A stretch of 64,000 nucleotides of DNA from Candidatus Saccharimonadota bacterium (GTDB taxonomy: Bacteria; Patescibacteriota; Saccharimonadia; Saccharimonadales; Saccharimonadaceae), in NCBI GenBank assembly GCA_024682595.1, contig JAIKZA010000008.1, positions 10,697-74,696 of the forward strand, read 5' to 3'. The notes beneath the pieces are model-generated. The model was given only the letters and a program-made list of their open reading frames with translations. It ran no database searches and had not been told where the DNA came from. This document shows positions 183 to 20,523 of this stretch, piece by piece. Position numbers and translations under genes: made by a program. Each line of letters opens with the position of its first letter. Position 1 is the stretch's first letter.

Positions 183-257
183 TCCCCTGTAGCTCAATGG
201 TGGAGCAAGAAGCTGTTAACTTCGAGGTTGCCAGTTCGAGTCTGGCCGGGGGAGCCA
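183..257 (+). tRNA. tRNA-Asn (anticodon GTT), 75 nt with encoded CCA
   Basis: Hand-folded cloverleaf. Acceptor TCCCCTG/CGGGGGA, D stem GCTC/GAGC, anticodon loop CTGTTAA, T stem GCCAG/CTGGC with TTCGAGT loop, then discriminator G and CCA. Confidence 0.9.
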
Positions 258-1742
258 AGATTGAGTTTTTGACATTGATGATAACGTATTAAAGGGCTCT
301 AACAGATTACAGTTGAGCCTTTTTTGGTCGATTTTAAGGTTCGAAAATAAAAGTTTCAAAATCTTGTTCTTTTGCTCTGGTTTCGAACTTTCAAATATTG
401 TTCGTGCCTTTGAGGCTAGTTCTAACAGATAAGAACGGCTTACATCGAAACTTTTGTCATTGTTTGTCAGTTCCATTAACTTGCTATCCTTTTCGTTGAT
501 TTCGGCTTCTATCTTTGTCGCAATTTTGTCATACTCATCCACAGTAATACGACCGTTTAGCCTATCTTCATACAATATCTCTTTTTTCTTTGTAGCCTTT
601 TCTATACCATCACGGACTTCTTTAATCGCATTACGGTAGTAAAGTTGGATATTGTCGTGTTTTTCCTTCAAGTCTGCTACTATTTCATCTACTAGAGTTT
701 GGCTGATACTGATTTTATCAAGCACCGAACATACTTGCGACAAAATTTCTTCTTCCGAAGCGTGGTTTCCGCATTTACCCTTTGCTTGTGAGCACTTTAC
801 GTAAATATGACCTTTCTTGTAATAGGAACTCATACTGCATCCACAGACACCACATTTCAATATGCCGTTCAGAGCAAAGTGATATTTCGTGTCGACCTTA
901 TTTTTCTTACATCCTTCATTAGTTCTTATTAGTTGGGCTCTGTCGAAGGTTCTTTTGTCGATAATTGGCTCGTATTTATGCGGGTATAAGTTGCCGTCGT
1001 ATCGCATAACACCATAATAAAACGGATTACTTAGTACACCTTCGATGACACTCTTTGAGATAGGCTTTGGGCGTTTAGTGTTGCTTGTCATACCCTCGCT
1101 TCGCATAGTATTAGCAATACTTCTGAACGTTTCGCCTTTTAGCCTCAAGTCGAAAATCTTTTCGATATATTGTCGTCTGGCTGGGTCAGGGATAATACCT
1201 TTCTTGCCGTTCGGTAAGTTAATGTTTATGTAGCCTATTGGTGCTTTTCCAGGGAATTCGCCATCGTGAAGTTTCTGTTCAATCCTACGCTTTACGTTGT
1301 CGGAAATTGCGGATGAATAGTATTCGCCGAATACCATACCGATACCTAGACGGGTTTTATCGCAGGCTGGCGAGTTTTTATGAAAGACTAGACCGTCTGA
1401 CGGAAAGTGTAATTCCAGTTTCCCATCTCTAACTCTATCTTTCAAAATTCTTACTACTTCAGATGTAGCATCACGAGTAAAGCGGTCGATTTTATCGAAC
1501 ACTACAACTGCCTTTTCTTCGCAATGAGCAATATCCATTACTATCTCTTGGAATTTTCGACGGTCTTCTTTGTAAGCCGTTTCATCAAAACTGTGTAAAG
1601 TGGCTCTTAGCCCTAACTGCTCAGCATAATTTTTTAGCCTTAATTCCTGAGCAGGTAGTGCATCGACCTGGCTTGGGTCGGATACCCGTGCAATTAAAAA
1701 TGCCTTCATCCCTTCATAGTTAGTTTTCGTATTAAAATTCAT
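216..1742 (-). CDS. Large serine recombinase (integrase)
   Basis: N-terminal resolvase domain (AFLIARVSDPSQ, catalytic Ser context), recombinase domain, Cys-rich zinc ribbon (CGVCGCSM...CSQAKGKCGNH) and a coiled coil. The stop TAA (218-216) lies antisense within the tRNA anticodon loop. An alternative start at M12 (1709) is possible. Confidence 0.9.
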   Translation of the reverse strand: MNFNTKTNYEGMKAFLIARVSDPSQVDALPAQELRLKNYAEQLGLRATLHSFDETAYKEDRRKFQEIVMDIAHCEEKAVVVFDKIDRFTRDATSEVVRILKDRVRDGKLELHFPSDGLVFHKNSPACDKTRLGIGMVFGEYYSSAISDNVKRRIEQKLHDGEFPGKAPIGYININLPNGKKGIIPDPARRQYIEKIFDLRLKGETFRSIANTMRSEGMTSNTKRPKPISKSVIEGVLSNPFYYGVMRYDGNLYPHKYEPIIDKRTFDRAQLIRTNEGCKKNKVDTKYHFALNGILKCGVCGCSMSSYYKKGHIYVKCSQAKGKCGNHASEEEILSQVCSVLDKISISQTLVDEIVADLKEKHDNIQLYYRNAIKEVRDGIEKATKKKEILYEDRLNGRITVDEYDKIATKIEAEINEKDSKLMELTNNDKSFDVSRSYLLELASKARTIFESSKPEQKNKILKLLFSNLKIDQKRLNCNLLEPFNTLSSMSKTQSWLPRPDSNWQPRS

Positions 1743-1799
1743 AATTATCCTTTCGTTTACTTTATATTATATAACATTACTTAACAATATGTACCAAAA

Positions 1800-2921
1800 T
1801 TATAGCAATAAAAAGTAGTTTTTCATCCTTGTCGGCTTCTTTCTTCTTATTACGTCGCTTATCTTCGTTAGAACTTTCAAATTATCATCTTCTGGCAAAG
1901 GCAAAATACTCTTTGATAATCGATACCAGGCTTTGCTTCCTAACTTCTTTTCGATGAGGCTTCTAGCATTCCTGCTATCATCCGAACTAGCCATAAGTGA
2001 GTAGTACCCTAAACTTGCCAAGAGGTTCATCGGTCGGACATTGTCATTAGTGAGCAGTTTTACAAGGATGTTGTCAGGAGTTTGAAAATCTAATTGAGCC
2101 TTTGGAACCTTGCTCAAAATTCTTTGCCAATGGTAATTTACGACTTTGCTCGAAATATCGGATGAGAATAATCTGCCGAATGTTAGGTCGTCTGATGGCA
2201 GACCAATCTTTTCGAGCATAGAGCGTATTTGCTTCTTGCCGTTAAGTCTAACCTCAACACGAAGAACCGAGATGTTTCTGTTTTTATTGAAGGCATCGAT
2301 TAAATTTTGTTGCACCAGACTATCGCTTTCGTATGCTCTTTTCGGGCTTTTGATACTTTGTTTTAAATCTTCAACCTTGTCGTAAAGTGCCACGTCTAGT
2401 GCGTTTGTGTGGATATGAAAAATGTGTCCGCCATTACGAAATGTATCTTTTTCCACGTCATACACTTTAGATATGTCAGCACGTCTTACGATACCAGTAA
2501 TGTAGGAAACTGGCATACCGTTATCCAAGACAATGTTTTTCGAGTAATCAATTTTTGATACTTCTAAGTTCTCAAGTTGGAACTTAAATAGCCACAAAGA
2601 TTTCATTTCTCTTAGTACGTCAGACAGAGCCTTTAGGACGGTTGGGAAATCATCGTCAGTCAACTCATCGAAATTATTATTGAATACCAATTTCGGAACA
2701 GATAGTTCTATGGCGAGTTGATATGTTTTACCGCCTCTTGCTGGTCTTTCGGTATACGTCAGCCTCGGATAATACTTTCCAGTCTTTTTCATCATCACTG
2801 TTGGGTTGTATATGCCTTGGATAACACCCTTTTCTTGCTCTTTAAAGAGTTGGAAGTCCAGGTCGCTTTTACGCAACGGTCTAGATAAGTTCATAGTCAG
2901 TTTTACCGTGTCTATCATCAT
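1800..2921 (-). CDS. Putative replication initiation protein (filamentous-phage gpII / Phage_CRI-like family)
   Basis: The N-terminus MIDTVKLTMNL and the IELSVPKLVFNNNFDEL block recall gpII-type MIDMLVL... and ASPAKVLQGHNVFG. The match is from memory, not a search. Start chosen at MMIDTV; the ORF track extends to 2942. Confidence 0.5.
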   Translation of the reverse strand: MMIDTVKLTMNLSRPLRKSDLDFQLFKEQEKGVIQGIYNPTVMMKKTGKYYPRLTYTERPARGGKTYQLAIELSVPKLVFNNNFDELTDDDFPTVLKALSDVLREMKSLWLFKFQLENLEVSKIDYSKNIVLDNGMPVSYITGIVRRADISKVYDVEKDTFRNGGHIFHIHTNALDVALYDKVEDLKQSIKSPKRAYESDSLVQQNLIDAFNKNRNISVLRVEVRLNGKKQIRSMLEKIGLPSDDLTFGRLFSSDISSKVVNYHWQRILSKVPKAQLDFQTPDNILVKLLTNDNVRPMNLLASLGYYSLMASSDDSRNARSLIEKKLGSKAWYRLSKSILPLPEDDNLKVLTKISDVIRRKKPTRMKNYFLLL

Positions 2922-3183
2922 TACTTCTTTCGAACAGTTCATTACATTTTTTAATGATTAAGTTTTCTAATTGCTTACCGCATTCCGAGTTGATTGGATG
3001 GAAAACGTTCAGATATTTCGTTCCTATTCTTTTTGTTGGATAAAGTATCCTGTATGAGCCGTCTAGGCGTGTATACACGGCGATTGAGCCGAGATATATG
3101 TTGTCATCGATTACTACGCTCGCAAACGCTACAAGACCATCCTGTGGCTTTACGGGGCATATTTTTACTTCACTTATCTTCAT
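2881..3183 (-). CDS. spoVG: SpoVG-family protein
   Basis: MKISEVKI..DGLVAFASVVIDDNIYLGSIAV...YPTKR....FHPINS aligns well with B. subtilis SpoVG (MEVTDVRL..AIASITLD..PSKR..IAHPINS). AAAGGAA Shine-Dalgarno (SD) before the ATG at 3183. Confidence 0.75.
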   Translation of the reverse strand: MKISEVKICPVKPQDGLVAFASVVIDDNIYLGSIAVYTRLDGSYRILYPTKRIGTKYLNVFHPINSECGKQLENLIIKKCNELFERSNDDRHGKTDYELI

Positions 3184-3295
3184 ATTCCTTTGCCTGCTTA
3201 CTGTTTTCATTGTCAAAATCCGCTTCCATTAAAGCGTCGATGAAGGCGACTAGCCTTTCTTTTTGCTCTGTGGTTAATTCGGATTTATTATTCAT
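3170..3295 (-). CDS. Small acidic ORF, 41 aa (MNNKSELTTEQKERLVAFIDALMEADFDNENSKQAKEYEDK)
   Basis: Found by reading; it is below the ORF-track size cut-off. Its stop overlaps the spoVG-like ATG. TATAGT sits 6 nt upstream of its ATG. Confidence 0.3.
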   Translation of the reverse strand: MNNKSELTTEQKERLVAFIDALMEADFDNENSKQAKEYEDK

Positions 3296-3308
3296 AGCCC
3301 GACTATAC

Positions 3309-3340
3309 AAAAAATGACTCTGTACAATTTCATACAGAGT
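3309..3340 (-). terminator. Rho-independent terminator after the 310-aa gene
   Basis: Perfect 8-bp stem ACTCTGTA/TACAGAGT (3317-3324 / 3333-3340) with an 8-nt loop, followed on the minus strand by TTTTTT (3309-3314). Confidence 0.65.
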
Positions 3341-3369
3341 TTACAGAGAGAAAATTGACGGTTTTTAAA

Positions 3370-4302
3370 TTATTTGAACAACTTTGGGTTCAAAATATAT
3401 GTATTATTGCCGTCCTGGATAATTAGTTTTTCGCCAAGACCCGTTGCCAGCATAAATCGGTTATTTATGTTGCGAATAGACTGATACACCTTCCTTTGAA
3501 ATTTTGCGTGTTCTTCATTGCTTTCGCTAAACCAATCTCTGTTTTCGCATTTTTCGTAGAAATCTACTGGCTCGTATGACCTAGTTTTACTGAAGTTTTT
3601 TCGACCAAAGAAGATATGAAGTAGAACTGATGCTATTCCGCCCTTAAATTGGATAGTCTTACCGTTAATTTCTAATGTAGAATGGCTATTATTTACAAAA
3701 CCTATGTCAGCAATCGTTGCAGGGATAGAATATTTTTCTGTTCTTTCTTCTAGTGTGGCTATTTTTGCAAGAATTAACTTTTGACTTTCTTTTATGTCTG
3801 ATATTCCTGCAACAAACTGTAAATCTGCCGAATTCTTATAGACAATACCATTATCGTTATATTTTTCTTCTATCTCAGCAGACATCGATACTAGACAGGA
3901 CGAGCCACTCTGTATTTCGTCTATCTTTGAAACGCTTTTTGTGGCTTCTTCGTAGACTTCTGAGATTGAGTTAATCGCTTTGAGCGATAATGTAATATCC
4001 TTGCCGATAGCCTGCGACGGCGTAATGTCTATTCGTAAACTACTTGTAGCACTTAAGAAACTGTTTATTAGTTCCTGGGTCGGAGCAAAGGCTCTTTGGA
4101 CAGACTGGACAAATTCATCTAAACTTGAGACAAATGTGGCATTTGCAAAAAGTCTGTTTTGCTGGTCGGCTACACTTTGAATAGCGTTTTGGAGTCCTGA
4201 GGTTCGGGCGGTCAATATTTCCGAAATTCCGCTCAAATTATAAAGGCTAGGTATAGCCGTTAACTGCTCAGGATGTGGTTTTACATCTTTCAAATCTGTC
4301 AT
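3370..4302 (-). CDS. Hypothetical protein with a probable C-terminal winged-helix (OmpR/CadC-like) DNA-binding domain; candidate island regulator
   Basis: Long ORF divergent from the excisionase gene. The C-terminal pattern LEINGKTIQFKG...VYQSIRNINNRF...LIIQDGNNTYILNP resembles the trans_reg_C layout. Confidence 0.5.
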   Translation of the reverse strand: MTDLKDVKPHPEQLTAIPSLYNLSGISEILTARTSGLQNAIQSVADQQNRLFANATFVSSLDEFVQSVQRAFAPTQELINSFLSATSSLRIDITPSQAIGKDITLSLKAINSISEVYEEATKSVSKIDEIQSGSSCLVSMSAEIEEKYNDNGIVYKNSADLQFVAGISDIKESQKLILAKIATLEERTEKYSIPATIADIGFVNNSHSTLEINGKTIQFKGGIASVLLHIFFGRKNFSKTRSYEPVDFYEKCENRDWFSESNEEHAKFQRKVYQSIRNINNRFMLATGLGEKLIIQDGNNTYILNPKLFK

Positions 4303-4344
4303 TACTTTTTCCCGTAGTTCTATTAAATATTGTATAATAAAAGT
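4303..4344. promoter_or_regulatory. 42-bp divergent promoter/operator region
   Basis: TATAAT at 4333-4338 (plus strand) lies 6 nt before the ATG at 4345. TACAAT on the minus strand faces the 310-aa gene. Confidence 0.4.
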
Positions 4345-4536
4345 ATGAAAAGTGAGAAAGAATTACCTGAGTATCTTACCCTGCAAGAGGTAAGCCAAAT
4401 GCTAAAAGTTCATCCCAATACCTTAAGGGCGTGGGACAACAATGGAACGCTGAAGGCGGTACGAATTGGAGCCAAAAAAATCCGTCGCTACCGAAAAGTA
4501 GATATTGATAATTATGTCGAACAAAGGTTGATATAG
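4345..4536 (+). CDS. Excisionase / MerR-type helix-turn-helix DNA-binding protein
   Basis: LTLQEVSQMLKVHPNTLRAWDNNGTLKAVRIGAKKIRRYR matches the HTH_17/excisionase pattern. The ATG at 4345 is preferred over the TTG at 4330, which overlaps the -10 box. Confidence 0.8.
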   Translation: MKSEKELPEYLTLQEVSQMLKVHPNTLRAWDNNGTLKAVRIGAKKIRRYRKVDIDNYVEQRLI

Positions 4537-4585
4537 AAGCATTAAAACATATCGAGCGTGAGATTATGGGGTATAAAAAAACGGT

Positions 4586-6067
4586 ATGCTAACAGTTAAA
4601 AACCTTGTTAAATATTACGGTGAGGATTTGGTACTTGGGGGTGTATCTCTGACGGTGGATTTTGGTGAAAAAGTGGGGCTTGTCGGTGTGAACGGAGCAG
4701 GTAAATCGACCTTACTCAAAATCATTGCAGGAATTGAAAAGGCAGATGATGGAAAAATTGAAACTGGCAAAACTGGTACGATTGGTTTTTTGCGACAGGA
4801 GTTTAGTTTAGTCGAAGAAGCACAACTCGTTGAGGACTACATTACAGCATCAAATATACCCTCGCAAAACTTATACAAAGTCGACATCATTCTTGACGGA
4901 TTAGACTTCCCGCAACCATTAAGGAATAGTCGTATTTCCGATTTAAGTGGTGGACAAAAAAGCAAATTGTTATTGGCTTTGGCATTGTTGGATGGAGAAG
5001 ATATATTACTACTAGACGAACCAACTAACAATCTAGACCTGGATGCGATAATGTGGCTCGAAAACTACCTCATTGGCACTACTACGCCTATGATTATTGT
5101 TTCGCACGACCGTAGATTTTTGAATAAAATCACTACTAAAATACTAGAAATTGACGAAGCGACAAGAAAAATCAAGGAGTATGCTGGCAATTATGATTTC
5201 TATCACGAAATGAAAAGGCTAGAATTGGAACATTCGATTTCAGCGTACGAACAATACCAAACAAAGGTAGCCAGTCTAGAAGCAGACATTAGGCAGAAGA
5301 AGCAGTGGGCAATGAAGGGTCAGAGGTATATTCCAAAAGATAATGACAAATTCGATAAGGGATTTATGCGAGACCGCTCAAAGAGTTTAACGAAATCAGC
5401 GAAAAGTTTGGAAAGAAAAATCGGACAACTAGAGAAAGTTGACCGCCCAGACTTAAAACAGCCTCTTAAAATTGAGATTGATGAAACAAAGATTAAAGGT
5501 TCAACTCTAATCCGTCTAACAGACTTGGTGTGTGGGTATAATGATGGATTTCAAACTAAACCTATTACTTTTGACTGTCAATTTGGAGAGCGAGTAGTTA
5601 TTCTAGGTAAAAACGGGACTGGAAAATCTACCTTAATTAAGACAATCTCTGGGGAAATTCCTCAGTTATCTGGCGATATAAGCATAGGGACTGGAATTAG
5701 GATAGGATATATCTCTCAAGACACGAAAATGGATACCGAGAAGACAGTGAGCGAATATCTGCTTGGTGATGATAGAGACAAAACAACCGTGTTTACAGTA
5801 ATGAAACGTTTTAACTTCCCCTACGAAAACCGAAATAAATTATATCGAGATTTAAGTCCAGGGGAACGCACTAGAGTAATGTTGGCAAGATTTGCTCTGA
5901 ATGGAGTTAACACGCTTTTACTAGATGAGCCGACGAACCACCTCGACATTGAAGCCTTGGAAGCACTAGAGGAATTGTTGACAAGTTTTAGCGGTAGTGT
6001 TATTTTAGCAAGCCACGACCGAAGTTTAATAGAAAAAATTCACCCAACAAAACAAGTTGAGATGTGA
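4586..6067 (+). CDS. ABC-F family ATPase (two nucleotide-binding domains (NBDs), no transmembrane (TM) domain)
   Basis: Walker A GVNGAGKST and GKNGTGKST. Signatures LSGGQKSK and LSPGERTR. Walker B LLLDEPTNNLD and LLLDEPTNHLD. A charged inter-domain linker of about 95 aa. Confidence 0.9.
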   Translation: MLTVKNLVKYYGEDLVLGGVSLTVDFGEKVGLVGVNGAGKSTLLKIIAGIEKADDGKIETGKTGTIGFLRQEFSLVEEAQLVEDYITASNIPSQNLYKVDIILDGLDFPQPLRNSRISDLSGGQKSKLLLALALLDGEDILLLDEPTNNLDLDAIMWLENYLIGTTTPMIIVSHDRRFLNKITTKILEIDEATRKIKEYAGNYDFYHEMKRLELEHSISAYEQYQTKVASLEADIRQKKQWAMKGQRYIPKDNDKFDKGFMRDRSKSLTKSAKSLERKIGQLEKVDRPDLKQPLKIEIDETKIKGSTLIRLTDLVCGYNDGFQTKPITFDCQFGERVVILGKNGTGKSTLIKTISGEIPQLSGDISIGTGIRIGYISQDTKMDTEKTVSEYLLGDDRDKTTVFTVMKRFNFPYENRNKLYRDLSPGERTRVMLARFALNGVNTLLLDEPTNHLDIEALEALEELLTSFSGSVILASHDRSLIEKIHPTKQVEM

Positions 6068-6086
6068 GTTAAAAGGCGAACGAATA

Positions 6087-6317
6087 TTAATTAATCGACC
6101 ACTTCGAGTCGACTTCATACCATTGGATTAGACTAATTACTTTTTCGGCTATTTTTGTGTCTGTTTTTGCTTGTTCGACATAGTTATGCGCTATTCTTTG
6201 CACTATCGTGAAATCGCTCATATCAAGGTCGTTAAAATCCGCCTCTTTTATAGATGAAAACTGTTTCATCCAGTATGCTAACTCTTTTTTGGTTGTGCTA
6301 TCGTTGATATTATCCAT
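6087..6317 (-). CDS. Hypothetical small acidic protein (76 aa)
   Basis: ORF overlaps the stop of the upstream HNH gene by 8 nt, suggesting translational coupling. Confidence 0.5.
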   Translation of the reverse strand: MDNINDSTTKKELAYWMKQFSSIKEADFNDLDMSDFTIVQRIAHNYVEQAKTDTKIAEKVISLIQWYEVDSKWSIN

Positions 6318-7263
6318 TATTGTCTTCCTCTTTCGTCAATTGCCATTCGAGGTTATCACTTTTGGCTTGATTATCTTCGGGCTTTAGTAATTGCAAGTTA
6401 GTATAGTGGCACAACTCTATGACATCTTGCTCAGTCTTAGCGGTGGCTAACGGTATAATATGGTCTATATGGTAAGGCTCGCCGTTCCACTCTGTGCCGT
6501 AATTTGCTTGCCAAGTGCCTAATAAATAATCGACAAAGGTATTAAAATCACAACCTAGTATTTGCTCGGTCTTAGTACCTTTCTTATATCCCGTGCGGTT
6601 AAAAGAGTTGCGTATAAGGTTGCGGGTTTGCTCTTTTAATTTTAATATCGGGTCGTTGGCTAGTCTTTTAATAGCGTATGCCGTGTGCTTTTTCTGTATC
6701 TCTACCTTGTTTGCTTGGTAATATGCTTGTCGCCACTCGGCTCGCTTTTCTTTATGTTTATGGTAGTTGGCTCGGTTCTTTTCTAAATACTTTTCGTGGT
6801 CGGCATAATACTCATCTTTTTTCTTTGCCAAAATCTCGTCGTGGTTCTCTTTGTAATAGTTGGCTTTGTAGGCTTTTCTCTCATCTATATGCTCTTGCCA
6901 ATACTTTTTATGCCACTCGCTAATCTCGTCTTGGTGTGTGGCTCTGTAAGCCTGTTGATAGGCTATCACGGCGTCGGTATTAGCCCTATAATAAGTTTTT
7001 TGCCTTTCTAGTACACGCTCTTTGTTTTTCTCGTAATACTCTTTGCCTTTTTCTTTAATATAGTCGGCGTTTTGCTCTCTGTATTTTTTATTGTAATCGC
7101 TTAACTTTTGCTTATTCTCTCGGTAGTAATCTTGCCTTGCTTGGTATCGGCAAGCCTTGCACTCATTGCGATATTTGCCCGTATCTCGCCTAAAAATAAA
7201 CTCGGTTAGAGGCTTAGTCTTACCGCACTTTGTACAAATCTTTGTATCGTTCTGCACGTTCAT
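6310..7263 (-). CDS. HNH endonuclease with an N-terminal zinc ribbon and about ten 15-aa YYxxN helical repeats
   Basis: CTKCGKTK...CKACRY zinc ribbon. Repeats run from YYRENKQKL to YYQANKVEI. C-terminal HNH core YHIDHIIPL....NLQLL..EDNQAK. AAGGA SD. Confidence 0.8.
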   Translation of the reverse strand: MNVQNDTKICTKCGKTKPLTEFIFRRDTGKYRNECKACRYQARQDYYRENKQKLSDYNKKYREQNADYIKEKGKEYYEKNKERVLERQKTYYRANTDAVIAYQQAYRATHQDEISEWHKKYWQEHIDERKAYKANYYKENHDEILAKKKDEYYADHEKYLEKNRANYHKHKEKRAEWRQAYYQANKVEIQKKHTAYAIKRLANDPILKLKEQTRNLIRNSFNRTGYKKGTKTEQILGCDFNTFVDYLLGTWQANYGTEWNGEPYHIDHIIPLATAKTEQDVIELCHYTNLQLLKPEDNQAKSDNLEWQLTKEEDNNG

Positions 7264-7432
7264 CTTTTATCCTTAAGGCGTATGCTTGGCAATGTTGTCT
7301 GTATTATTAATATTATAACATTTTTCTACACTTTCGCTGTTTGCCACATCTTGCGAAGCATTGATATAATTGTTCTGTTGATATAAAATTACTTTGACTT
7401 CCTCAAGTTTTTCCGAGTCATAGGAAAAGAGA

Positions 7433-7464
7433 GCGGTTCGAAATGTGTCCGCCAACGGGAGCCA
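7433..7464 (+). repeat. att-like degenerate copy of the tRNA-Asn 3' end (copy B)
   Basis: GTGTCCGCCAACGGGAGCCA (7445-7464) matches tRNA 238-257 at 14/20 positions, including the terminal GGGAGCCA. A GGTTCGAA T-loop-like stretch lies upstream. Confidence 0.6.
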
Positions 7465-7755
7465 TTTTTGACTATTCGCACAATTTGATAACGATTTGAA
7501 AGGCTCTAACAGATTAAATTGGAGTCTTTTTTGATTGATTTTAAGGTTCGAAAATAATAGTTTCAAAATCTTGTTCTGCTGCTCTGGTTTCGAATTTTCA
7601 AATATAGTTCGTGCCTTTGACGCTAGTTCTAACAGACAAGAGCGGCTTATATCGAAACTTTTGTCATTGTTTGTCAGTTCCATTAACTTGCTATCCTTTT
7701 CGTTGATTTCGGCTTCTATCTTTGTCGCAATTTTGTCATACTCATCCACAGTAAT
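7465..7755 (-). pseudogene. 3' fragment of a second large serine recombinase gene
   Basis: Colinear, ungapped with 258-548. The last 250 nt or so are about 90 percent identical by eye. It encodes DEYDKIATKIEAEINEKDSKLMELTNNDKSF..., nearly identical to the C-terminus of the intact recombinase. No N-terminal catalytic domain is present. Confidence 0.85.
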
Positions 7756-7789
7756 GCACCCGTTGCCCGGCCCCGGGAACCAAAATTTA

Positions 7790-8887
7790 CTAACTAGCTT
7801 GCTGCAAAAAGGTATTTATTGCACCTGCTAATTTGTCAGTAGGGTACTCCCATATTTCATGTGGACCTGGCACCTCAATGAACGCCGCATTTTCATCCTG
7901 TAAAGCCTTTTGATTATCGTCCTTGTATCCTTTATAAAAATTAATATATTCCTCCATCGCTTTTTTATCTCCTCCAAAACTGCTAAGTGCCGTCTCCTTG
8001 AAATATTTTTCATAATAGTCTTTATCGAACTGGTTAGCAGCGATAAACAATTTTGCTAATTTACGATAATTTTCACCCCTAATCTTTATTGTATTTTCAG
8101 CGTTAGCTTTTTCTAGTTCCGACTCACTTACTACGAAATCTGGAAAGGCATTTTCCATCCCTAGAATTTTGCTTGCTCTTGCTAAATCCTCCGTAAAATA
8201 TCCTGTTTTCACTAATTGCTCAGCCTCAGCATCTCTCGTTGCTTCATCCAGCATAAACAAGCGGTGTAATCCTAATTTTGCGGCAATATTGTAGAGGTGA
8301 GTAGAAAACCAATCATAATGATTATATTTTTCCTCTATGGCATTTTCCGGAGAGCCAATATCAAGTGCTATCATCCCGCTTACTTCCTCAGGATATTTTT
8401 CCGCCCAATACATTGCATACTGTCCAGCAATGGAATGAGGCATCAAAATTACAGAGGTTTCCACCCCTATTTCTTTCAGCGTTTTGCGATAAAACTCAAC
8501 GATAAAGTCCGAAGTCGCGTCTATACCAGTATCCTCGGATAAAGCATATCCAGGACGATTTATCAGTATTACTCGCGCGTTCACCTTCTCGGCTAACGGC
8601 GTGAACGAAAGTGCGGCGTTCTGCACATTTAGCCCTGGCATCAAAACTAAAGTATGCTCGGTTTTTTCAGAATTAAAAACTTTGTAATTAACCTCTTGCC
8701 CATCCACCATCACCGTTCTACCAATGTCATAAGATTTTAGCAACTCCCATTCTCGCCCTATCTGTATCTTATGGTTAATAAAAACACCCAGGACAAACAA
8801 AAACATACATCCTAGCAATATACCCGCTATGATGCCAGAGACTTTCAAGATTTTGCGAAATTTCAAACTTTTTTCGTTTTTAACCAT
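7790..8887 (-). CDS. Membrane-anchored alpha/beta hydrolase
   Basis: N-terminal TM helix, nucleophile elbow MPHSIAGQY and LVLMPGL oxyanion region. TATAAT lies 6 nt upstream of the ATG. Confidence 0.75.
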   Translation of the reverse strand: MVKNEKSLKFRKILKVSGIIAGILLGCMFLFVLGVFINHKIQIGREWELLKSYDIGRTVMVDGQEVNYKVFNSEKTEHTLVLMPGLNVQNAALSFTPLAEKVNARVILINRPGYALSEDTGIDATSDFIVEFYRKTLKEIGVETSVILMPHSIAGQYAMYWAEKYPEEVSGMIALDIGSPENAIEEKYNHYDWFSTHLYNIAAKLGLHRLFMLDEATRDAEAEQLVKTGYFTEDLARASKILGMENAFPDFVVSESELEKANAENTIKIRGENYRKLAKLFIAANQFDKDYYEKYFKETALSSFGGDKKAMEEYINFYKGYKDDNQKALQDENAAFIEVPGPHEIWEYPTDKLAGAINTFLQQAS

Positions 8888-9043
8888 AACATTATTATAC
8901 CGTGAAAAGATCCCCGTTCTAAACGGAGGCCTATTGATTGTTATGGCTCTGCGGCCACCTTTATTTCTCCATCTTTAGCAAGTCTGGTTAGTTTTTCGAT
9001 AGTTTTTACCTATATGCCAGCCATACTTAGGAGTATTTGTTAG

Positions 9044-9067
9044 TAATGTGTCAGCCAGGGGGAGCCA
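9044..9067 (+). repeat. att-like copy of the tRNA-Asn 3' end (copy C); probable outer island boundary
   Basis: GTGTCAGCCAGGGGGAGCCA (9048-9067) matches the tRNA 3' end at 16/20 and copy B at 17/20. Sequence to its right is unrelated to the element ends. Confidence 0.5.
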
Positions 9068-9197
9068 GGTTTAATATACAGATATATATTCAAATAAAGA
9101 GACGCTCGTAAGCAATGAAGAGGTCTTTTTTTGTTGTTTTTATAAAAATATTCAAAAGTACTTGTTTTTACGATTCGTTTATGCTTAAATACGTTTA

Positions 9198-9250
9198 TAA
9201 AAAGGTCAAATAAAAAGGTCAAATAAAAAGGTCAAATAAAAAGAAAGGTT
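9198..9250 (+). repeat. 13-bp tandem repeat (TAAAAAGGTCAAA x3 plus a partial copy) just upstream of the protease gene
   Basis: GGTC recurs at 9204, 9217 and 9230. A fourth, partial unit merges into the AAAGG SD of the ATG at 9257. Confidence 0.95.
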
Positions 9251-9256
9251 ACCTAT

Positions 9257-11983
9257 ATGGTTAGGAGAAAAAAGTCTTTGCTTTTTTCGGCATCATTAGC
9301 ATCTGCGGGTTTAGTCGCCGGCGGGTTGTTCATGATTGCCCCAAAAACGCAAGCGAGTAGCGATGAGGTCGCTATATCAAATACAGCAAACGCAGTAATT
9401 CAGGAAATCAGCAAAGAAAGCGGAATTTCAGCTAAAGGCGTGGAGACTGCTCTGAAAACCCATGAGCTAATAGTCAACATTCCAAACCTAGATGAATTTA
9501 AAGAAAGCCATCCAGACGCCATAAAGTATACAAAAATAGCCGAAAAGGTATACGTAGTCGAGTTCGCAGATTATAACACCACATCCGCAAACTATCTTGA
9601 TATAAAAGAAAAAGATAACAATTCTGGCGTTCTTTTAAATATGCAGTTAAAACTTGACGACGATGCAGAATCGAATGCGATATATAATTACGAGGAAATA
9701 AACCGATGCACTAATCGCTCTGCTACAACATACACAAATGGTACTAGCATACCAGACCAGTGCTTGGGCTGGGGAACTTCCGCCATGAAACTAGACACCT
9801 ATGCGAAAAGTCTAACTTCTGGCCAAAAAGTTACCGTTGCTGTGATTGATAGTGGCGTCCGCGCGTCTCACTGGGCATTCAAGAAGACAACCGTAGGCGA
9901 CCGCCTCGATATGACCTATGCTCACGATTATTACGATAACGACACAAATCCCGACGATAGTGGAAACGACGCCAACGACAGCATGACAGCAACTTGCAAT
10001 ATCACTACTCAAACATGCACTAACGTAAGTGCTGGCGCCTCAAGAGTAACGCATGGCACATCTGTTGCAGGAACAATCACCCAGGCCACTCCGGCGAGTG
10101 TAAAAATTGTTCCCATCCGCATTTCCGGCGGTAAAAGCATTGATCTTACGAAGGTAGTAATAGCTGTTTCTGAGTTAAAGGGTAAGGTTGACGTAATCAA
10201 CTTAAGTCTCGGCCTCGTAGAACAATTACCAAATCCGCTACCAGAAGAGTTTCAGACCACAATCGAACCTGCTTTTAGGGAAGCTAAAGAGGCTGGCACT
10301 ATTATAGTGGCCTCGGCCGGCAATGGTAGCGCTGGCTGGGTTTCTTATCCAGCGTCTAGTGACTATACCATCGCCGTATCTTCCGTCAATAATGCTAAAT
10401 CATTCTCGTCGTCGTTTTCTCAACATGGCGCAGAAATCGATTTCGCGGCACCTGGCGAGGAGCTTCTCCTGCCAACATCAAGTACTGGCGCGGATAATAC
10501 ATTAACCCTAATTGGTGGTACATCTTTCTCTGCACCTTACATTTCTGCAGCAATAGCAAATATCTTAACCGAACACCCAAACTATAACTACAACCAGGTC
10601 TATAACGCCCTTAAACTCGATGCTGAAGACTTAGGCGCAGCTGGCAAAGATGAGTACTATGGTTGGGGCAGCGTAAGCTTCCATGTTAACAAATACGCGG
10701 ATTTAAGTATTTCGACGCCAGCCGTAACAGCGGCAACTAACTGGACAAATAGTAATGCCACCATTAAAGCTACTGCGAGCAGTAACGCGTACAATATTAA
10801 TAAGTACAAAGTAGACAATGGCAATACCACAACCGCTACTCCGAGCTCTTGGTCAACCATTTCTTCGTCCAGTAAATCATACAACCTTTCGCAAACTGTC
10901 TCCGCAAACGGAACATATACGCTTTGGTTCAAGAATAGCAACAACGAGACCGCCTCGAAGACCGTTACGGTAAATAATATTGATAAAACCGCACCGGTAA
11001 TTAGCACCGCCCTCTCAGCAAGCAGTGTTACGGCTAATGGGGCAACTTTAAATATTGGAGTAACAGATAGCGCAAGTGGTCTCGGTCGAATCGTCTGGCA
11101 CTATAAAGAAAACTATGCAAGCAGCTATACAGACAAGACCGAAACGTATGCTAGCTCGAGTACTGGTGAGACTTCCGCAACAACTAAGAGCCTAGTTCTA
11201 ACTGGGCTCAATGAATCCTCCCGATACGCAGCATATGCGACCGTCTATGATGTTGCGGGCAACGCTAAAGATTCTGAAACAATTTACTTTGCCACTAGAG
11301 CAGCGAGCGATCCGTCAGTTCCGGCGACTAGTATTGCTGTCAGCCCCGCAACCGCAAACGTCAACGTAGGAGCTACGCTAAGCTTGACCGCCACCGTCAC
11401 TCCTACAAATTCAACCGATACGATTACTTGGAGCAGTAGCGATAGTAGTGTTGCGACAGTTGATGCGAATGGCGTCGTAAAAGGGATAAAAGCAGGAACA
11501 GCGACCATTACCGCCAAGGCGAACGACAATGTCTGGAACACCGCTATTATAACCGTAAAAGCTACTACAACGACGGTTCCAGCAACAGACATAAGCATTA
11601 ATCCTGTTTCTGTCAGTATTAACGTCGGCGAGGAAGCAACCCCAACCGTAACGCTTACTCCTACAAATTCAACCGATACGATTACTTGGAGCAGTAGCGA
11701 TAGTAGTGTTGCGACAGTGTCTAGCACTGGTAAAATAATAGCCGTTAAGGCTGGCACGGCCACCATTACCGCTATGGCAAATAGCAATGTGTCGGCAAAT
11801 ATTACAGTTACCGTACTAGGGGGAACAAACAACGATCCAGTAGCTCCTACTGAGCCAACCGAACCAAAAGACGTTAACATAAAGAATCCTAAAACTGCCG
11901 ATATTAATACTCCTGCAATAGCAAGCGTAGGTGGAATTCTGAGCGCTCTAGCGTTCTTCATCTTCCGCGCAAAACGCCGTTAG
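9257..11983 (+). CDS. Secreted, cell-surface subtilisin-like (S8) serine protease with Ig-like and two Big_2 domains
   Basis: Signal peptide. Catalytic motifs VAVIDSGV, HGTSVAGT and GGTSFSAPY. Two Big_2 repeats (..WSSSDSSVATV...KAGTATITA). C-terminal NPKTAD, then a hydrophobic helix and RAKRR tail. Confidence 0.9.
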   Translation: MVRRKKSLLFSASLASAGLVAGGLFMIAPKTQASSDEVAISNTANAVIQEISKESGISAKGVETALKTHELIVNIPNLDEFKESHPDAIKYTKIAEKVYVVEFADYNTTSANYLDIKEKDNNSGVLLNMQLKLDDDAESNAIYNYEEINRCTNRSATTYTNGTSIPDQCLGWGTSAMKLDTYAKSLTSGQKVTVAVIDSGVRASHWAFKKTTVGDRLDMTYAHDYYDNDTNPDDSGNDANDSMTATCNITTQTCTNVSAGASRVTHGTSVAGTITQATPASVKIVPIRISGGKSIDLTKVVIAVSELKGKVDVINLSLGLVEQLPNPLPEEFQTTIEPAFREAKEAGTIIVASAGNGSAGWVSYPASSDYTIAVSSVNNAKSFSSSFSQHGAEIDFAAPGEELLLPTSSTGADNTLTLIGGTSFSAPYISAAIANILTEHPNYNYNQVYNALKLDAEDLGAAGKDEYYGWGSVSFHVNKYADLSISTPAVTAATNWTNSNATIKATASSNAYNINKYKVDNGNTTTATPSSWSTISSSSKSYNLSQTVSANGTYTLWFKNSNNETASKTVTVNNIDKTAPVISTALSASSVTANGATLNIGVTDSASGLGRIVWHYKENYASSYTDKTETYASSSTGETSATTKSLVLTGLNESSRYAAYATVYDVAGNAKDSETIYFATRAASDPSVPATSIAVSPATANVNVGATLSLTATVTPTNSTDTITWSSSDSSVATVDANGVVKGIKAGTATITAKANDNVWNTAIITVKATTTTVPATDISINPVSVSINVGEEATPTVTLTPTNSTDTITWSSSDSSVATVSSTGKIIAVKAGTATITAMANSNVSANITVTVLGGTNNDPVAPTEPTEPKDVNIKNPKTADINTPAIASVGGILSALAFFIFRAKRR
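11399..11718 (+). repeat. Two exact 62-nt copies inside the protease gene (11399-11460 and 11657-11718)
   Basis: The two copies are identical on direct comparison. The 258-nt spacing equals one Big_2 domain. Confidence 0.95.
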
Positions 11984-17592: not shown

Positions 17593-18309
17593 TTAATGAT
17601 TAAGGATAAATAATGCAATAGTGCTAATGACCCAAAAGATGATTCGACAGACTATCCAGAATGCAAGAATGGCCGCGATTAATATCACCGCGCCAGAAAG
17701 ACATGGATACCAAATGGGAGAGGCTATATCATAACGGTAATTTTCAGTATTTGGCAAAACCGCCTCAAGTTCCGTTGTTAATGAAGCCGAAGATGGATAT
17801 TTAGCTAACTCATTAGTGTAACAGTCAAGATAGCGCCTATCGTAATACGGCCAGCCGTAAGTGCGCGCTCTGTCATCGCATATTTTTGCAACTTTTGCAA
17901 AAATATTTCCGTTAGGATTTTGGTCTGTGATGCCTTTTTCTTCTATTTCGGCTTGTTGCTTAGCTATAGCCTCTTTTGCATCGTGGATGTAAAGATTTTC
18001 GAGATAAAAAGGCCCCGTACCAAATATAACCGACCGTCGGCCGTTCTCTTCTAGGATATTAAAGATAATATGCTTTAATGTAAAATTGCGTAGCTCGTTT
18101 AAGGAGGCTAGAATTTTCTCGTTATCCTCTTTTTCGTCCGCCGCAAGCACGGCCTCTCGCAATTCGCTCATTTTTATATGGTCAAAACGTAGAAAAGTTG
18201 CGCCCAAAAAGATTAACAAAATTAGAACCAGGATCAGCTTCCAGGTACTGATGTGGAAGATTTTAGACAGAGCCTTCTTAGACTTCTTCTTTTTCGACAC
18301 TCCACCCAT
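17593..18309 (-). CDS. Hypothetical membrane protein (N- and C-terminal TM helices)
   Basis: Long ORF with hydrophobic segments at both ends. Confidence 0.6.
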   Translation of the reverse strand: MGGVSKKKKSKKALSKIFHISTWKLILVLILLIFLGATFLRFDHIKMSELREAVLAADEKEDNEKILASLNELRNFTLKHIIFNILEENGRRSVIFGTGPFYLENLYIHDAKEAIAKQQAEIEEKGITDQNPNGNIFAKVAKICDDRARTYGWPYYDRRYLDCYTNELAKYPSSASLTTELEAVLPNTENYRYDIASPIWYPCLSGAVILIAAILAFWIVCRIIFWVISTIALFILNH

Positions 18310-20000: not shown

Positions 20001-20523
20001 CGGTATCTTCCTTCGATAAGTCGTCCCGAATAACTAAAACTGATTGGCGATGCTTGGAAATTATCTCATCCATGCGCTCCATACTCTTCGTTATGTCTGC
20101 GCGCTTCTTGCGAGTTTTTTCGAGTTGTCGATAGAATTTAATTGGCTCATTTTTACAGTCCATATCAATTAGCGATTGTAATTCTTGAGAATACCCAATA
20201 AAATCATTGCGAAATCGCTCACGCTCGCTTTGAAATGCCGCTTGCTGGTTGGCTATATCCTGCTTTGCAATCCCATTTCTCATTAAGCGAAGGCTAAAGT
20301 TTGACATTAATCCAGAATAGATAGACTCATATTGCGTACCAAGATAGACGCGACTTTTTGCGCCTACACTTTCAATTCGGCGTAAACGCTCTTTTATAAT
20401 CGAGCAGTTTTGCGAGATAGCGCCAATGCGATTATCGTTAAGTTTAATCGCCGTAGCTGAAGTAGATGAAAAAACTACAATCATTGCGGCGAACACTAGA
20501 CTGTAGTTAATTCTTTTCTGCAT
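19993..20523 (-). CDS. Hypothetical secreted helical protein
   Basis: Signal peptide. Lies downstream of aspS on the same strand. Confidence 0.5.
   Translation of the reverse strand: MQKRINYSLVFAAMIVVFSSTSATAIKLNDNRIGAISQNCSIIKERLRRIESVGAKSRVYLGTQYESIYSGLMSNFSLRLMRNGIAKQDIANQQAAFQSERERFRNDFIGYSQELQSLIDMDCKNEPIKFYRQLEKTRKKRADITKSMERMDEIISKHRQSVLVIRDDLSKEDTDE

What the first reader, a model, noticed from the sequence alone, without database searches (positions are those of the whole stretch)
258..9067. Composite tRNA-Asn island bounded by three tRNA-3'-end-like att copies (one intact element, one relic)
Seen, three related 20-mers:
- tRNA end GAGTCTGGCCGGGGGAGCCA (238-257)
- copy B GTGTCCGCCAACGGGAGCCA (7445-7464)
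- copy C GTGTCAGCCAGGGGGAGCCA (9048-9067)

B and C match each other at 17/20, and at 23/28 with the upstream 8 nt included. They match the tRNA at 14/20 and 16/20. Sequence to the right of the tRNA copy and of B is homologous (recombinase 3' end). Sequence to the right of C is unrelated.

Inference: this pattern fits two related elements integrated in tandem at the same tRNA. The inner one (258-7464) is intact. The outer one (7465-9067) is reduced to a recombinase stump plus an alpha/beta hydrolase gene.
Basis: partly seen in the sequence, partly recalled or inferred. Interest (0 to 1): 0.65.

Follow-up and report, generated by a model that had tools for sequence, protein, structure and literature searches.

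The report
Stacked mobile elements at tRNA-Asn
In a gut Saccharibacteria genome, a 7.2-kb intact mobile element driven by a serine recombinase sits at the tip of the tRNA-Asn gene next to the 1.6-kb remnant of an older related element, a known kind of stacking seen here in an unusual element family.

Summary
In 64 kb on both strands, only B (7445-7464) and C (9048-9067) match the tRNA-Asn 3' end at 14/20 or better.

The tandem reading is supported by comparison with other samples:
- An empty site: tRNA-Asn joined directly to 9068 onward.
- A remnant-only allele: tRNA, then recombinase stump, hydrolase and the S8 protease gene.
- Near-identical copies of the inner element in other chromosomal backgrounds, ending at the same nucleotides.
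- An independent contig that spans junction B.

One correction is needed. B and C are not displaced tRNA ends. The element uses a large serine recombinase. Crossover falls inside the last 6-8 nt (GAGCCA) of the tRNA. B and C are the element-borne arm of attP.

That arm also encodes the first codons of a conserved 28-35-aa C-terminal tail of the recombinase (dN/dS 0.04-0.15). The tail is joined to the gene only in the excised circle. Two circular relatives were found.

The remnant is itself a mosaic. It has an outer stump from a different element lineage, a 105-nt tract identical to the inner element, and a fourth tRNA-Asn-end fragment of a foreign allele. It also carries a hydrolase gene under purifying selection.

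The order of events is not resolved. This is a new variant of a known kind, of moderate interest.

The parts
183..257 (+). tRNA-Asn(GTT). Its last 6-8 nt (GGGAGCCA, 250-257) are the recombination core. Together with 258 onward it forms attL of the inner element.
   Evidence: ARAGORN. Recombinase homologues abut or overlap a tRNA-Asn in the same way in 14 of 20 genome loci. L012 and L013 carry the same element beside tRNA alleles that differ up to position -9.
258..7464 (.). Inner intact element E (7,207 bp).
   Evidence: The left boundary after the CCA and the right boundary after the CCA of copy B are shared with L001, L002, L029, L031 and a contig of X2, whose flanks diverge from there on. 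The core module of recombinase, 380-aa protein, SpoVG and HTH_17 is conserved in the 20 loci.
216..1742 (-). Large serine recombinase in its integrated form (508 aa). The last 13 codons (WLPRPDSNWQPRS) are read antisense from the tRNA.
   Evidence: Pfam Resolvase, Recombinase and Zn_ribbon_recom. PHROG 95 integrase, E 1.5e-71. Translation.
1800..2942 (-). Conserved 380-aa core protein. Other notes call it a replication initiator, but no family match was found here.
   Evidence: tblastn match in all 20 genome loci (37-81% identity; only partial coverage in L001 and L018). No Pfam, PHROG, NCBIfam or PDB sequence hit.
2881..3216 (-). SpoVG-family protein.
   Evidence: Pfam PF04026, E 1.4e-10.
3370..4302 (-). 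310-aa protein of the core region, family unknown.
   Evidence: About 51% identity in L001 and L002. No significant family hit.
4330..4536 (+). HTH_17/MerR-type small DNA-binding protein (excisionase-like).
   Evidence: Pfam PF12728, E 1.2e-12. Matches PHROG excisionase families. Matched by tblastn in 19 of the 20 genome loci (not L018); it was not among the hits for L005.
4586..6067 (+). Cargo: ABC-F ATPase of the ribosomal-protection-like class.
   Evidence: NCBIfam NF000355, 422 bits against a cut-off of 380.
6087..7263 (-). Cargo: 317-aa endonuclease VII/HNH-like protein (6310-7263) and a 76-aa ORF (6087-6317).
   Evidence: PHROG 1035 and 2340. A contig of X3 lacks 6273-7375, so this block is variable.
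7276..7464 (-). Tail-coding segment of E's recombinase (WLPLADTFRTALFSYDSEKLEEVKVILYQQ...). It joins the gene only across attP. Copy B (the P arm, 7435-7464) is its first 10 codons.
   Evidence: In-frame reading across the CCA in 11 of 12 reconstructed junctions. dN/dS is 0.03/0.76 for E versus L001 and 0.084/1.33 for L007 versus L010. Contiguous full-length ORFs occur in public proteins and in circular contigs.
7465..7755 (-). Recombinase 3' stump of the outer remnant. It corresponds to residues of about 412-495 plus the P' arm.
   Evidence: Repeat of 258-548. In X44 and X45, 7465-7533 follows a tRNA-Asn and leads into a different intact recombinase, with 0 differences in X45. 7651-7755 is 100% identical to E. 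The same breakpoint is present in L021.
7756..7812 (+). 57-nt filler containing a fourth tRNA-Asn 3'-end fragment of a foreign allele (7765-7782).
   Evidence: 17/18 match to the L004/L012 tRNA-Asn allele. It is the only further tRNA-end-like 18-mer in the window. Other strains carry the 12-nt filler TCCCTATAAAAC at the same breakpoints.
7790..8887 (-). Alpha/beta-hydrolase gene (365 aa, N-terminal membrane anchor). Intact and under purifying selection.
   Evidence: Pfam PF00561. Only 12 homologues in 5.8 billion proteins. 95% amino-acid identity to L021, dN/dS 0.225.
9019..9067 (-). Right-end remnant of an L003/L004-type element. It encodes the first 16 tail codons (WLPLADTLLTNTPKYG). Copy C (the P arm, 9038-9067) plus the chromosomal flank forms attR.
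   Evidence: blastn to the right ends of L003 and L004. Matrix score 47.1 bits. Tail translation.
9068..9256 (+). Chromosomal B' flank, holding the tRNA terminator and a 13-bp x3 repeat, upstream of the S8 protease gene (9257-11983).
   Evidence: In the empty-site contigs of X22, X24, X27 and X30 it is contiguous with the tRNA-Asn 3' end.

Best explanation
**What is there.** The window holds an accretion array at tRNA-Asn of a ruminant-gut Saccharibacteria genome. The array was made by a family of 6-11-kb integrative, plasmid-like elements that use a large serine recombinase (LSR).

**How the elements recombine.**
- Recombination takes place inside the last 6-8 nt of the tRNA (GAGCCA, probably at the terminal CA). 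The tRNA therefore stays intact and no target sequence is duplicated.
- The tRNA 3' end is the B arm of attB.
- Copies B and C are P arms of attP carried at the far end of each element. They resemble the tRNA end because the same recombinase must bind both.
- The P arms also encode the start of a conserved C-terminal tail of the recombinase. That tail is attached to the gene only in the excised circle.

**Layout in the window.**
- T is attL (tRNA | P' of element E).
- 258-7464 is the intact element E.
- B is a hybrid junction (P arm of E | P' arm of an older element of another lineage).
- 7465-9067 is what is left of the older unit or units: a 291-nt recombinase stump, a 57-nt filler, a retained hydrolase gene and a 49-nt right end.
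- C is attR (P arm | chromosome).

**Most likely history (inferred).** The remnant was already at the tRNA. E then integrated at the same CCA, using the occupied site as its target. Later, gene conversion between the two 291-nt direct repeats made their inner 105 nt identical.

**Shown:** the anatomy, the boundaries, the empty and remnant-only alleles, the coding tail, and free circles of relatives.
**Inferred:** the order of events, the use of attL as a target, and the exact crossover dinucleotide.
For: **Recombinase type.** The domains are Resolvase, Recombinase and zinc ribbon, and no tyrosine integrase is present.

**Family context.**
- Of the 20 genome loci with homologues, 14 place the recombinase 3' end against tRNA-Asn.
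- In most of the loci whose far end is held (11 of 20), one P arm on the tRNA strand lies 6-11 kb from the recombinase end (L009 and L010 have two); no match anywhere lies on the other strand.

**Boundaries.**
- L012 and L013 carry the same element beside different tRNA alleles.
- L001 and L002 carry the same element with right flanks that differ from the base after the CCA.
- E itself occurs with other flanks in L031, L032 and X2.

**Population alleles.**
- Empty site: tRNA end joined to 9068-9400 in X22, X24, X27 and X30.
- Remnant-only allele: L021 and X22, X23, X24, X27, X30.
- Junction B lies within a 288-nt contig with no mismatches in X43, a different sample.

**Origin of the remnant.**
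- In X44 and X45, the P' arm of the stump (7465-7533) follows a tRNA-Asn and leads into an intact, different recombinase.
- C with its 49 nt matches the right end of L003 and L004.
- The tract 444-548 is 100% identical to 7651-7755, against 88% in the preceding 165 nt.

**Coding tail and circles.**
- The tail is coding: dN/dS 0.04-0.15.
- Contiguous tail-bearing ORFs exist in public proteins (P0015, P0016).
- L041 (9,724 bp) and L050 (10,673 bp) are circular contigs without a tRNA and carry the contiguous ORF.

**Other composites.** L010, L009 and X26 also show tandem or P|P' junctions.
Against: - The expected pre-insertion allele was not seen. It would read tRNA | TTTTTGACTATTCGCACAATT..., stump, hydrolase. 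All remnant-only strains carry an E-like 21 nt after the CCA instead.
- Either those strains lost an E-type element by homologous recombination, or the history is different from the one proposed.
- From my own knowledge, LSRs are not known to use attL as an integration target.
- A dyad-symmetry scan of 12 reconstructed attP sites gave no clear axis. The CA dinucleotide is therefore only a guess within GAGCCA.
- All population evidence comes from contigs of metagenomes at 3-15x depth, not from reads.
- No excision joint of this copy was seen.
- Junction B was found only in one further run, from the same study.
- The foreign tRNA fragment at 7765-7782 is unexplained.
Confidence: 0.78

Rival explanations
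1. The element entered by homologous (Campbell-type) recombination rather than by the serine recombinase. An incoming circle recombined with the pre-existing stump through their shared recombinase 3' sequence. On this reading, junction B is the intact attP of the incoming element. The 105-nt identical tract marks the crossover. The sequence after the tRNA (258-443) is the old remnant's own.
For: - Remnant-only strains carry the T-type sequence after the CCA, as the window does at 258-278.
- The perfect 105-nt tract lies at the inner end of the repeat.
- The ORF through B is open for 158 codons and includes a full tail.
- A contig of X6 joins E-type alleles at 7606-7650 to the filler and hydrolase.
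Against: - Where E occurs in other hosts without any stump at its right end (L031, L032), its recombinase is contiguous with the same T-type flank at 99% identity. That flank is therefore E's own.
- Contigs of X3 and X5 also run from the T flank into E's recombinase.
- 7465-7533 belongs to a different recombinase lineage in X44 and X45.
- The X6 contig may be a de Bruijn graph artefact at 3x depth.
Confidence: 0.12
2. This is a classical tRNA island. B and C are partial copies of the tRNA 3' end, left as direct repeats by successive integrations that each rebuilt the tRNA. That is the pattern of tyrosine-integrase islands.
For: There are three same-strand copies resembling the tRNA end. They sit at the borders of blocks with mobile-element genes.
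Against: - No tyrosine integrase is present.
- The copies match the resident tRNA only at 14-16/20.
- The copies follow the element lineage and not the host tRNA allele. L004 has tRNA GAGCCCGGCCCCGGGAGCCA but far-end copy GTGTCAGTAAGGGGGAGCCA.
- The sequence to the left of the copies is conserved element DNA and is coding.
- Identity between attB and attR is limited to 10 nt in this genome and to 6 nt across the family.
Confidence: 0.03
3. The composite is an assembly chimera. The assembler joined two strains, one carrying E and one carrying only the remnant, through the 105-nt identical repeat.
For: - The window comes from a metagenome-assembled genome at low depth.
- The contigs of X1 do not cover 7201-7600.
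- Remnant-only and E-only configurations both exist in related samples.
Against: - A chimera would join sequences inside the repeat, not at the CCA.
- The X43 contig (7377-7664, no mismatches) runs from unique E right-end sequence across B and through 186 nt of stump-specific variants.
- Contigs of X24, X25 and X26 link the stump to the filler and hydrolase.
Confidence: 0.05

Closest known systems
Dehalococcoides ssrA-specific genomic islands (McMurdie et al. 2011, PMC3146451)
   Same: - A serine-recombinase integration module sits next to attL at the 3' end of a tRNA-like gene.
- Several islands are stacked in tandem, each bounded by a roughly 20-bp copy of the gene's 3' end.
- Additional conserved element-side sequence lies next to the repeat.
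- Islands without an integration module are interpreted there as cis-mobilizable elements joined by accretion.
   Different: - The target there is tmRNA, and insertion is inferred in the T-loop. Here it is at the terminal GAGCCA of tRNA-Asn.
- The enzyme there is a CcrB-like/CcrA-like pair. Here it is one recombinase.
- No split recombinase gene is reported there.
- The host phylum differs, and the elements here are much smaller (6-11 kb).
ICE/CIME accretion in Streptococcus thermophilus (ICESt3 and CIME; reviewed in PMC5704250; own knowledge for details)
   Same: - A defective element keeps attL and attR but has no recombinase.
- An autonomous relative integrates into one of its att sites.
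- The result is a tandem composite that could excise in parts or as a whole.
   Different: - Those elements use a tyrosine integrase, true direct repeats and conjugation.
- Here the enzyme is an LSR with a minimal core, and no transfer genes were recognised.
- Mobilisation of the remnant is not shown.
Phage and ICE large serine integrases (phiC31, Bxb1, A118/LI, TP901-1, CcrB, XisF)
   Same: - The domain architecture is the same.
- attP and attB are non-identical and share only a short core.
- A small HTH protein is present as a candidate directionality factor.
   Different: - The target here is the extreme 3' end of a tRNA.
- attP lies inside the recombinase gene, so integration replaces a conserved 28-35-aa tail.
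- The occupied site seems to remain usable.
SSV1-type archaeal integrases and integration-dependent immunity of mycobacteriophages (own knowledge)
   Same: attP lies inside a gene of the element. Integration therefore changes that gene's product and reports the physical state of the element.
   Different: - Those are tyrosine recombinase systems.
- In SSV1 the integrase is cut in two, and in the mycobacteriophages the gene concerned is the repressor.
- Here only the C-terminal tail of a serine recombinase is exchanged.

Membership tests
Large serine recombinase integrative element | N-terminal resolvase-type catalytic domain with the serine nucleophile motif | tested here: met
   Pfam PF00239 over residues 15-161. 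The motif ARVSDPSQ is present.
Large serine recombinase integrative element | Recombinase domain plus zinc-ribbon domain C-terminal to the catalytic domain | tested here: met
   PF07508 (residues 190-274) and PF13408 (residues 291-336). PHROG 95 integrase match over residues 4-478.
Large serine recombinase integrative element | attP and attB share only a short core, with no long target duplication | tested here: met
   The sequence shared between tRNA ends and P arms across the family is GAGCCA. Flanks diverge directly after the CCA.
Large serine recombinase integrative element | Imperfect dyad symmetry of the half-sites about a central dinucleotide | tested here: inconclusive
   A scan of 12 reconstructed attP sites gives 0.29 complementarity at the C|A axis, with no peak above background. 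In the P arm, a GTTCGA motif lies 5 bp further from the core than the T-loop GTTCGA does in the tRNA. This was seen by eye only.
Large serine recombinase integrative element | An excised circular form carrying the attP junction | tested here: met
   Met for relatives only. L041 and L050 are circular contigs without a tRNA and carry the contiguous recombinase-plus-tail ORF. For this copy, no excision joint appears in contigs.
Accretion array with a cis-mobilizable (CIME-like) remnant | Two or more units in tandem at one target, each bounded by att sites in the same orientation | tested here: met
   T, B and C all lie on the plus strand. B is a P|P' hybrid junction located exactly at the CCA.
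Accretion array with a cis-mobilizable (CIME-like) remnant | The defective unit lacks a recombinase but keeps both end sites | tested here: met
   The stump is only 291 nt. The P' arm (7465 onward) and the P arm C (47.1 bits) are intact at sequence level.
Accretion array with a cis-mobilizable (CIME-like) remnant | Empty, single-unit and composite alleles exist in the population | tested here: met
   Empty site in X22, X24, X27 and X30. Remnant-only allele in L021, X22, X23, X24, X27 and X30. Composite in the window and X43.
Accretion array with a cis-mobilizable (CIME-like) remnant | The defective unit is actually moved by the recombinase of a neighbour | not testable with these tools
   This needs excision PCR, long reads or an in vivo assay. 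The variable half-site types at the remnant's ends in different strains are only suggestive.
Tyrosine-integrase tRNA genomic island | Tyrosine recombinase (Phage_integrase fold) next to the tRNA | tested here: not met
   No such domain occurs in any ORF between 1 and 9067.
Tyrosine-integrase tRNA genomic island | The far-end repeat is a copy of the host tRNA 3' segment | tested here: not met
   Identity to the tRNA end is only 14-16/20. The copies track the element lineage and not the host allele, and they are coding.

The most novel reading that the evidence does not exclude
The 1.6-kb remnant is not dead. It may be a non-autonomous cassette whose two half-sites are still used by the serine recombinases of incoming elements.

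In this family the recombinase would recognise mainly the tRNA half of attB. An occupied site would then stay a target. Units could be stacked, swapped and lost, and cargo such as the hydrolase would be handed between elements and strains.

The differing half-site types found at the remnant's ends in different strains, and the presence/absence polymorphism with exact boundaries, would be the traces of this process. It would amount to a serine-recombinase version of ICE/CIME accretion in ultra-small CPR bacteria.
Probability: 0.3. Interest if true: 0.6.

Novelty: new variant of a known kind. Interest (0 to 1): 0.5.

Why it matters
Saccharibacteria and other CPR bacteria have tiny genomes, and very little is known about their mobile DNA.

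**What this locus shows.** In one place and across natural populations, it documents four states of a small plasmid-like element family at a single tRNA gene:
- empty site;
- decayed remnant;
- intact element stacked on a remnant;
- free circle (seen in relatives).

**Cargo.** The family carries a ribosomal-protection-like ABC-F gene and a rare hydrolase.

**Annotation rule.** For these serine-recombinase elements, 'tRNA-like repeats' are recombinase binding arms that also encode the enzyme's own tail. They are not duplicated target.

**Possible uses.** The family gives defined attP and attB sequences and a compact recombinase. These could be tested as genetic tools for organisms that are hard to manipulate.

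**Limit.** The stacking phenomenon itself is already known from other phyla.

Tried and rejected

**Searches that found nothing.**
- An exact look-up of the hydrolase protein found nothing on record.
- A viral-contig scan with the recombinase found no relative.
- The 380-aa core protein gave no hit in Pfam, PHROGs, NCBIfam or PDB sequences. I do not endorse 'rolling-circle Rep' from my own data.
- No paper in the held library describes this family in Saccharibacteria, or a serine integrase gene spanning attP.

**Tests that were inconclusive.**
- The dyad-symmetry scan for the crossover axis gave no clear peak. I therefore dropped the claim that TGTC...GACA symmetry pins down the CA.
- No joints indicating excision of 258-7464 or 258-9067 were found in contigs of 8 runs that hold the strain or the element. 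At 3-6x contig-level depth, this says nothing about rare circles.
- A joint 257->7379 in X3 has only 21 nt on one side. I disregarded it as a mis-laid P arm.

**Explanations rejected or abandoned.**
- The classical tyrosine-type duplication and the assembly chimera are rejected (see rivals).
- I tried to order the events from the three-way comparison of T flank, B flank and L021. The pattern is mosaic and does not fit one crossover, so I abandoned this.
- I considered that the hydrolase is an ordinary chromosomal neighbour of the tRNA. The empty-site allele lacks it. Its 42-45% homologues sit in unrelated contexts.

Full report
**Observation**

The tRNA-Asn(GTT) gene is at 183-257.

In the whole 64-kb window on both strands, B and C are the only 20-mers matching the tRNA end at 14/20 or better. 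Both are on the tRNA strand.

The flanks to the right of T and B align without gaps:
- 38% identity over the first 21 nt.
- 88% identity over 279-443.
- 100% identity over 444-548 versus 7651-7755.
- Nothing beyond 7755-7764.

The flank of C is unrelated.

**Gene content**

- 216-1742 (minus strand) is a 508-aa large serine recombinase with Resolvase, Recombinase and zinc-ribbon domains. Its last 13 codons are read antisense from the tRNA.
- Next come a 380-aa protein with no family hit, a SpoVG-like protein and a 310-aa protein.
- A divergent HTH_17 excisionase-like gene follows, then an ABC-F ATPase.
- The ABC-F ATPase passes NCBIfam's cut-off for 'ribosomal protection-like ABC-F'.
- A 76-aa ORF and an endonuclease VII/HNH-like protein complete the element.
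- 7273-7749 is an open frame made of a recombinase 3' stump that reads on through copy B.
- 7790-8887 is an alpha/beta hydrolase.

**Relatives**

The genome-contig scan with the recombinase returned 20 loci, all Saccharibacteria or Patescibacteria.
- In 14 loci the recombinase 3' end overlaps a tRNA-Asn antisense, exactly as here.
- One subfamily sits at tRNA-Leu or another tRNA ending GGGCACCA.
- The 380-aa protein is matched in all 20 loci and the HTH_17 gene in 19 (not L018). SpoVG is matched in 14. The hydrolase and the S8 protease are in none.

blastn places the window's right ends on those of relatives:
- 7375-7464, the 90 nt ending at copy B, matches the far ends of the elements in L001, L002 and L029 at 84-94%.
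- 9019-9067, the 49 nt ending at copy C, matches the far ends of L003 and L004 at 83-92%.

In most loci whose far end is held, each element ends with the motif gTTCGnAAtGyGTCmGCCAgnGGGAGCCA, and unrelated DNA follows directly.

A weight matrix built from ten of these sites gives the following:
- One P arm per element, 6-11 kb from the recombinase end, in 11 of the 20 genome loci. L009 and L010 have two. L011-L018 give none at this threshold.
- Matches also in loci that were not used to build the matrix.
- All matches on the tRNA strand.
- In the window, only B and C.

**Where recombination happens**

- L012 and L013 carry the same element next to tRNA-Asn alleles that differ up to position -9. 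The crossover is therefore within the last 8 nt or just after.
- P arms and tRNA ends across the family share only GAGCCA.
- L001 and L002 share the P arm but differ from the first base after the CCA.
- In this species the empty site reads ...TCTGGCCGGGGGAGCCA|GGTTTAAT.
- Copy C reads ...GTCAGCCAGGGGGAGCCA|GGTTTAAT.

The core therefore lies in GAGCCA at the very tip of the tRNA. The tRNA is not rebuilt and nothing is duplicated.

A dyad-symmetry scan did not single out the axis. The central dinucleotide remains a guess.

**What copies B and C are**

I read the minus strand across the CCA in frame with the recombinase. The P arm and the DNA to its left then encode a conserved peptide, WLxLA(D/N)xLRTASxxYDExK..IKExL. 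It is 28-35 aa long in most elements, and the ORF runs for 63 codons in E.

Between elements this stretch evolves like a protein:

| Pair | dN | dS |
|---|---|---|
| L007 vs L010 | 0.084 | 1.33 |
| E vs L001 | 0.031 | 0.76 |
| L003 vs L004 | 0.14 | 1.23 |

Further support:
- Public protein catalogues hold contiguous recombinases with this tail (P0015 of 532 aa, and P0016).
- The metagenome scan gave two contigs with terminal direct repeats and no tRNA. L041 is a 9,724-bp circle and L050 a 10,673-bp circle. In both, the recombinase ORF runs straight into the tail.

attP therefore lies inside the recombinase gene. Integration replaces the tail by 13 residues encoded antisense by the tRNA.

B is the first 10 codons of E's detached tail. 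C is the first 10 of the 16 tail codons that survive from an L003/L004-type element.

I reached this before reading earlier notes of this scan. Those notes say the same for other genomes. They are not independent evidence.

**Population evidence for the composite**

*Empty site.*
- Contigs of X22 (2,386 nt, depth 14), X24, X27 and X30 (depth about 50) consist of the tRNA-Asn 3' end followed directly by 9068-9400.

*Remnant only.*
- L021 was reached through a 95% identical hydrolase.
- It reads tRNA-Asn, 291-nt stump, hydrolase, P arm, S8 protease gene.
- X22, X23, X24, X27 and X30 show the same layout.

*E elsewhere.*
- L032 has E's flank and recombinase (99% identity) next to a different tRNA-Asn allele.
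- L031 has E's right end followed by TTTTTTTGCCCATG...
- A contig of X2 has E's right end followed by TTATGAAT....

*Junction B.*
- A 288-nt contig of X43, another sample of the same study, matches 7377-7664 without mismatch.
- This rules out a chimera made through the 105-nt repeat.

*Origin of the stump.*
- In X44 and X45, the 69 nt after B's CCA (7465-7533) follow a tRNA-Asn and continue into an intact but different recombinase. X45 shows 0 differences over those 69 nt.
- The outer part of the stump therefore comes from another element lineage. It is not a duplication of E.

**The remnant is mosaic**

- Its inner 105 nt are identical to E. This is a gene-conversion or crossover tract.
- The three-way comparison with L021 switches partner several times.
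- Between the stump and the hydrolase lies a 57-nt filler. Other strains have 12 nt at the same two breakpoints.
- The filler holds GCCCGGCCCCGGGAACCA, which matches the tRNA-Asn end of other Saccharibacteria at 17/18. I cannot explain how it got there.
- The hydrolase has lost its native last codons. Its C-terminal tail is QQAS in the window and GNYRG in L021.
- The hydrolase is otherwise intact, with dN/dS 0.225. Its dS is 0.105, against 0.17 for the neighbouring S8 gene.
- It has only 12 homologues in 5.8 billion proteins. The 42-45% identical ones sit in unrelated contexts.
- In L021 the right-hand P arm is of E's type, whereas in the window it is of the L003 type. The chromosomal flank differs by a 25-nt indel next to the core.

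**History**

The simplest reading is that the remnant was resident and E integrated at the same CCA. That produced tRNA|P'E and PE|P'R. Gene conversion followed.

Two points count against a clean story:
- The expected pre-insertion allele was not found.
- All remnant-only strains carry an E-like sequence after the CCA. This would fit earlier cycles of integration of E-type elements followed by loss through recombination between the 291-nt repeats.

A contig of X6 joins E-type alleles to the filler. It may be such a product, or a low-coverage graph artefact.

A Campbell-type entry through the stump homology is the main rival. It is disfavoured because E keeps the same flank in hosts without a stump.

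Other P|P' junctions (L010, X26) and a locus with two P arms (L009) show that stacking recurs in this family.

**Comparison with known systems**

The closest described case is the serine-recombinase ssrA islands of Dehalococcoides. There, tandem islands are each bounded by a roughly 20-bp copy of the tmRNA 3' end, and islands without an integration module are read as cis-mobilizable elements.

ICE/CIME accretion in streptococci is the functional model.

The differences here are:
- the tRNA-tip target;
- a single recombinase;
- attP inside the recombinase gene;
- the host phylum.

Searches of the held literature found no description of this family.

**Verdict**

- This is a new variant of a known kind, of moderate interest.

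**Limits**

- All run data are contigs.
- No excision of this copy was observed.

Noticed in passing
window 7276-7464 and 216-257; loci L041, L050, L034, L068; proteins P0015, P0016: attP lies inside the recombinase gene. The circular form encodes a conserved 28-35-aa C-terminal tail (dN/dS 0.04-0.15). Integration swaps that tail for 13 residues read antisense from tRNA-Asn. Two circular contigs without a tRNA carry the full-length gene.
   Followed up: yes
window 7765-7782: A fourth tRNA-Asn 3'-end fragment matches the allele of other Saccharibacteria (L004, L012) at 17/18. It lies inside a 57-nt filler between the stump and the hydrolase. Other strains have a 12-nt filler at the same breakpoints. 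Its origin is unexplained.
   Followed up: partly
window 541-552 / 7748-7755; L031, L032: The recombinase sequence CATCCACAGTAAT is a recurrent breakpoint. The remnant's stump ends there. Two contigs with a 99% identical recombinase carry a 295-nt deletion (552-846) that starts 2-4 nt away.
   Followed up: partly
window 4586-6067: The element's ABC-F cargo passes the curated NCBIfam cut-off for 'ribosomal protection-like ABC-F family protein' (422 bits against 380). It is a candidate antibiotic-resistance-type factor on a mobile element of a CPR bacterium.
   Followed up: partly
window 6273-7375: A contig of run X3 skips this block (the endonuclease-like gene and most of the 76-aa ORF). The cargo region next to the right end therefore varies between copies of E.
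   Followed up: no
L009 (reverse-complement coordinates 17996-18025 and 20268-20297); L010 (134-163): Other genomes also show two P arms 2.3 kb apart, or a P|P' junction preceded by unrelated element DNA. These are further stacked or decayed arrays of the same family.
   Followed up: partly
L014, L016, L017: A subfamily with 53-54% identical recombinase sits at tRNA-Leu(TAA), or at another tRNA ending GGGCACCA, instead of tRNA-Asn.
   Followed up: no
window 9068-9256: The chromosomal flank next to the att core varies strongly between strains. There are at least four variants of the tRNA terminator region, a 25-nt indel directly after the CCA, and a variable copy number of the 13-bp repeat (a 12-nt gap at 9209).
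   Followed up: partly
L021 (= contig of run X33): The remnant-only contig comes from a library labelled metatranscriptomic. If it really is RNA, then the tRNA, stump, hydrolase and the start of the S8 gene are co-represented in transcripts. DNA carry-over cannot be excluded.
   Followed up: no
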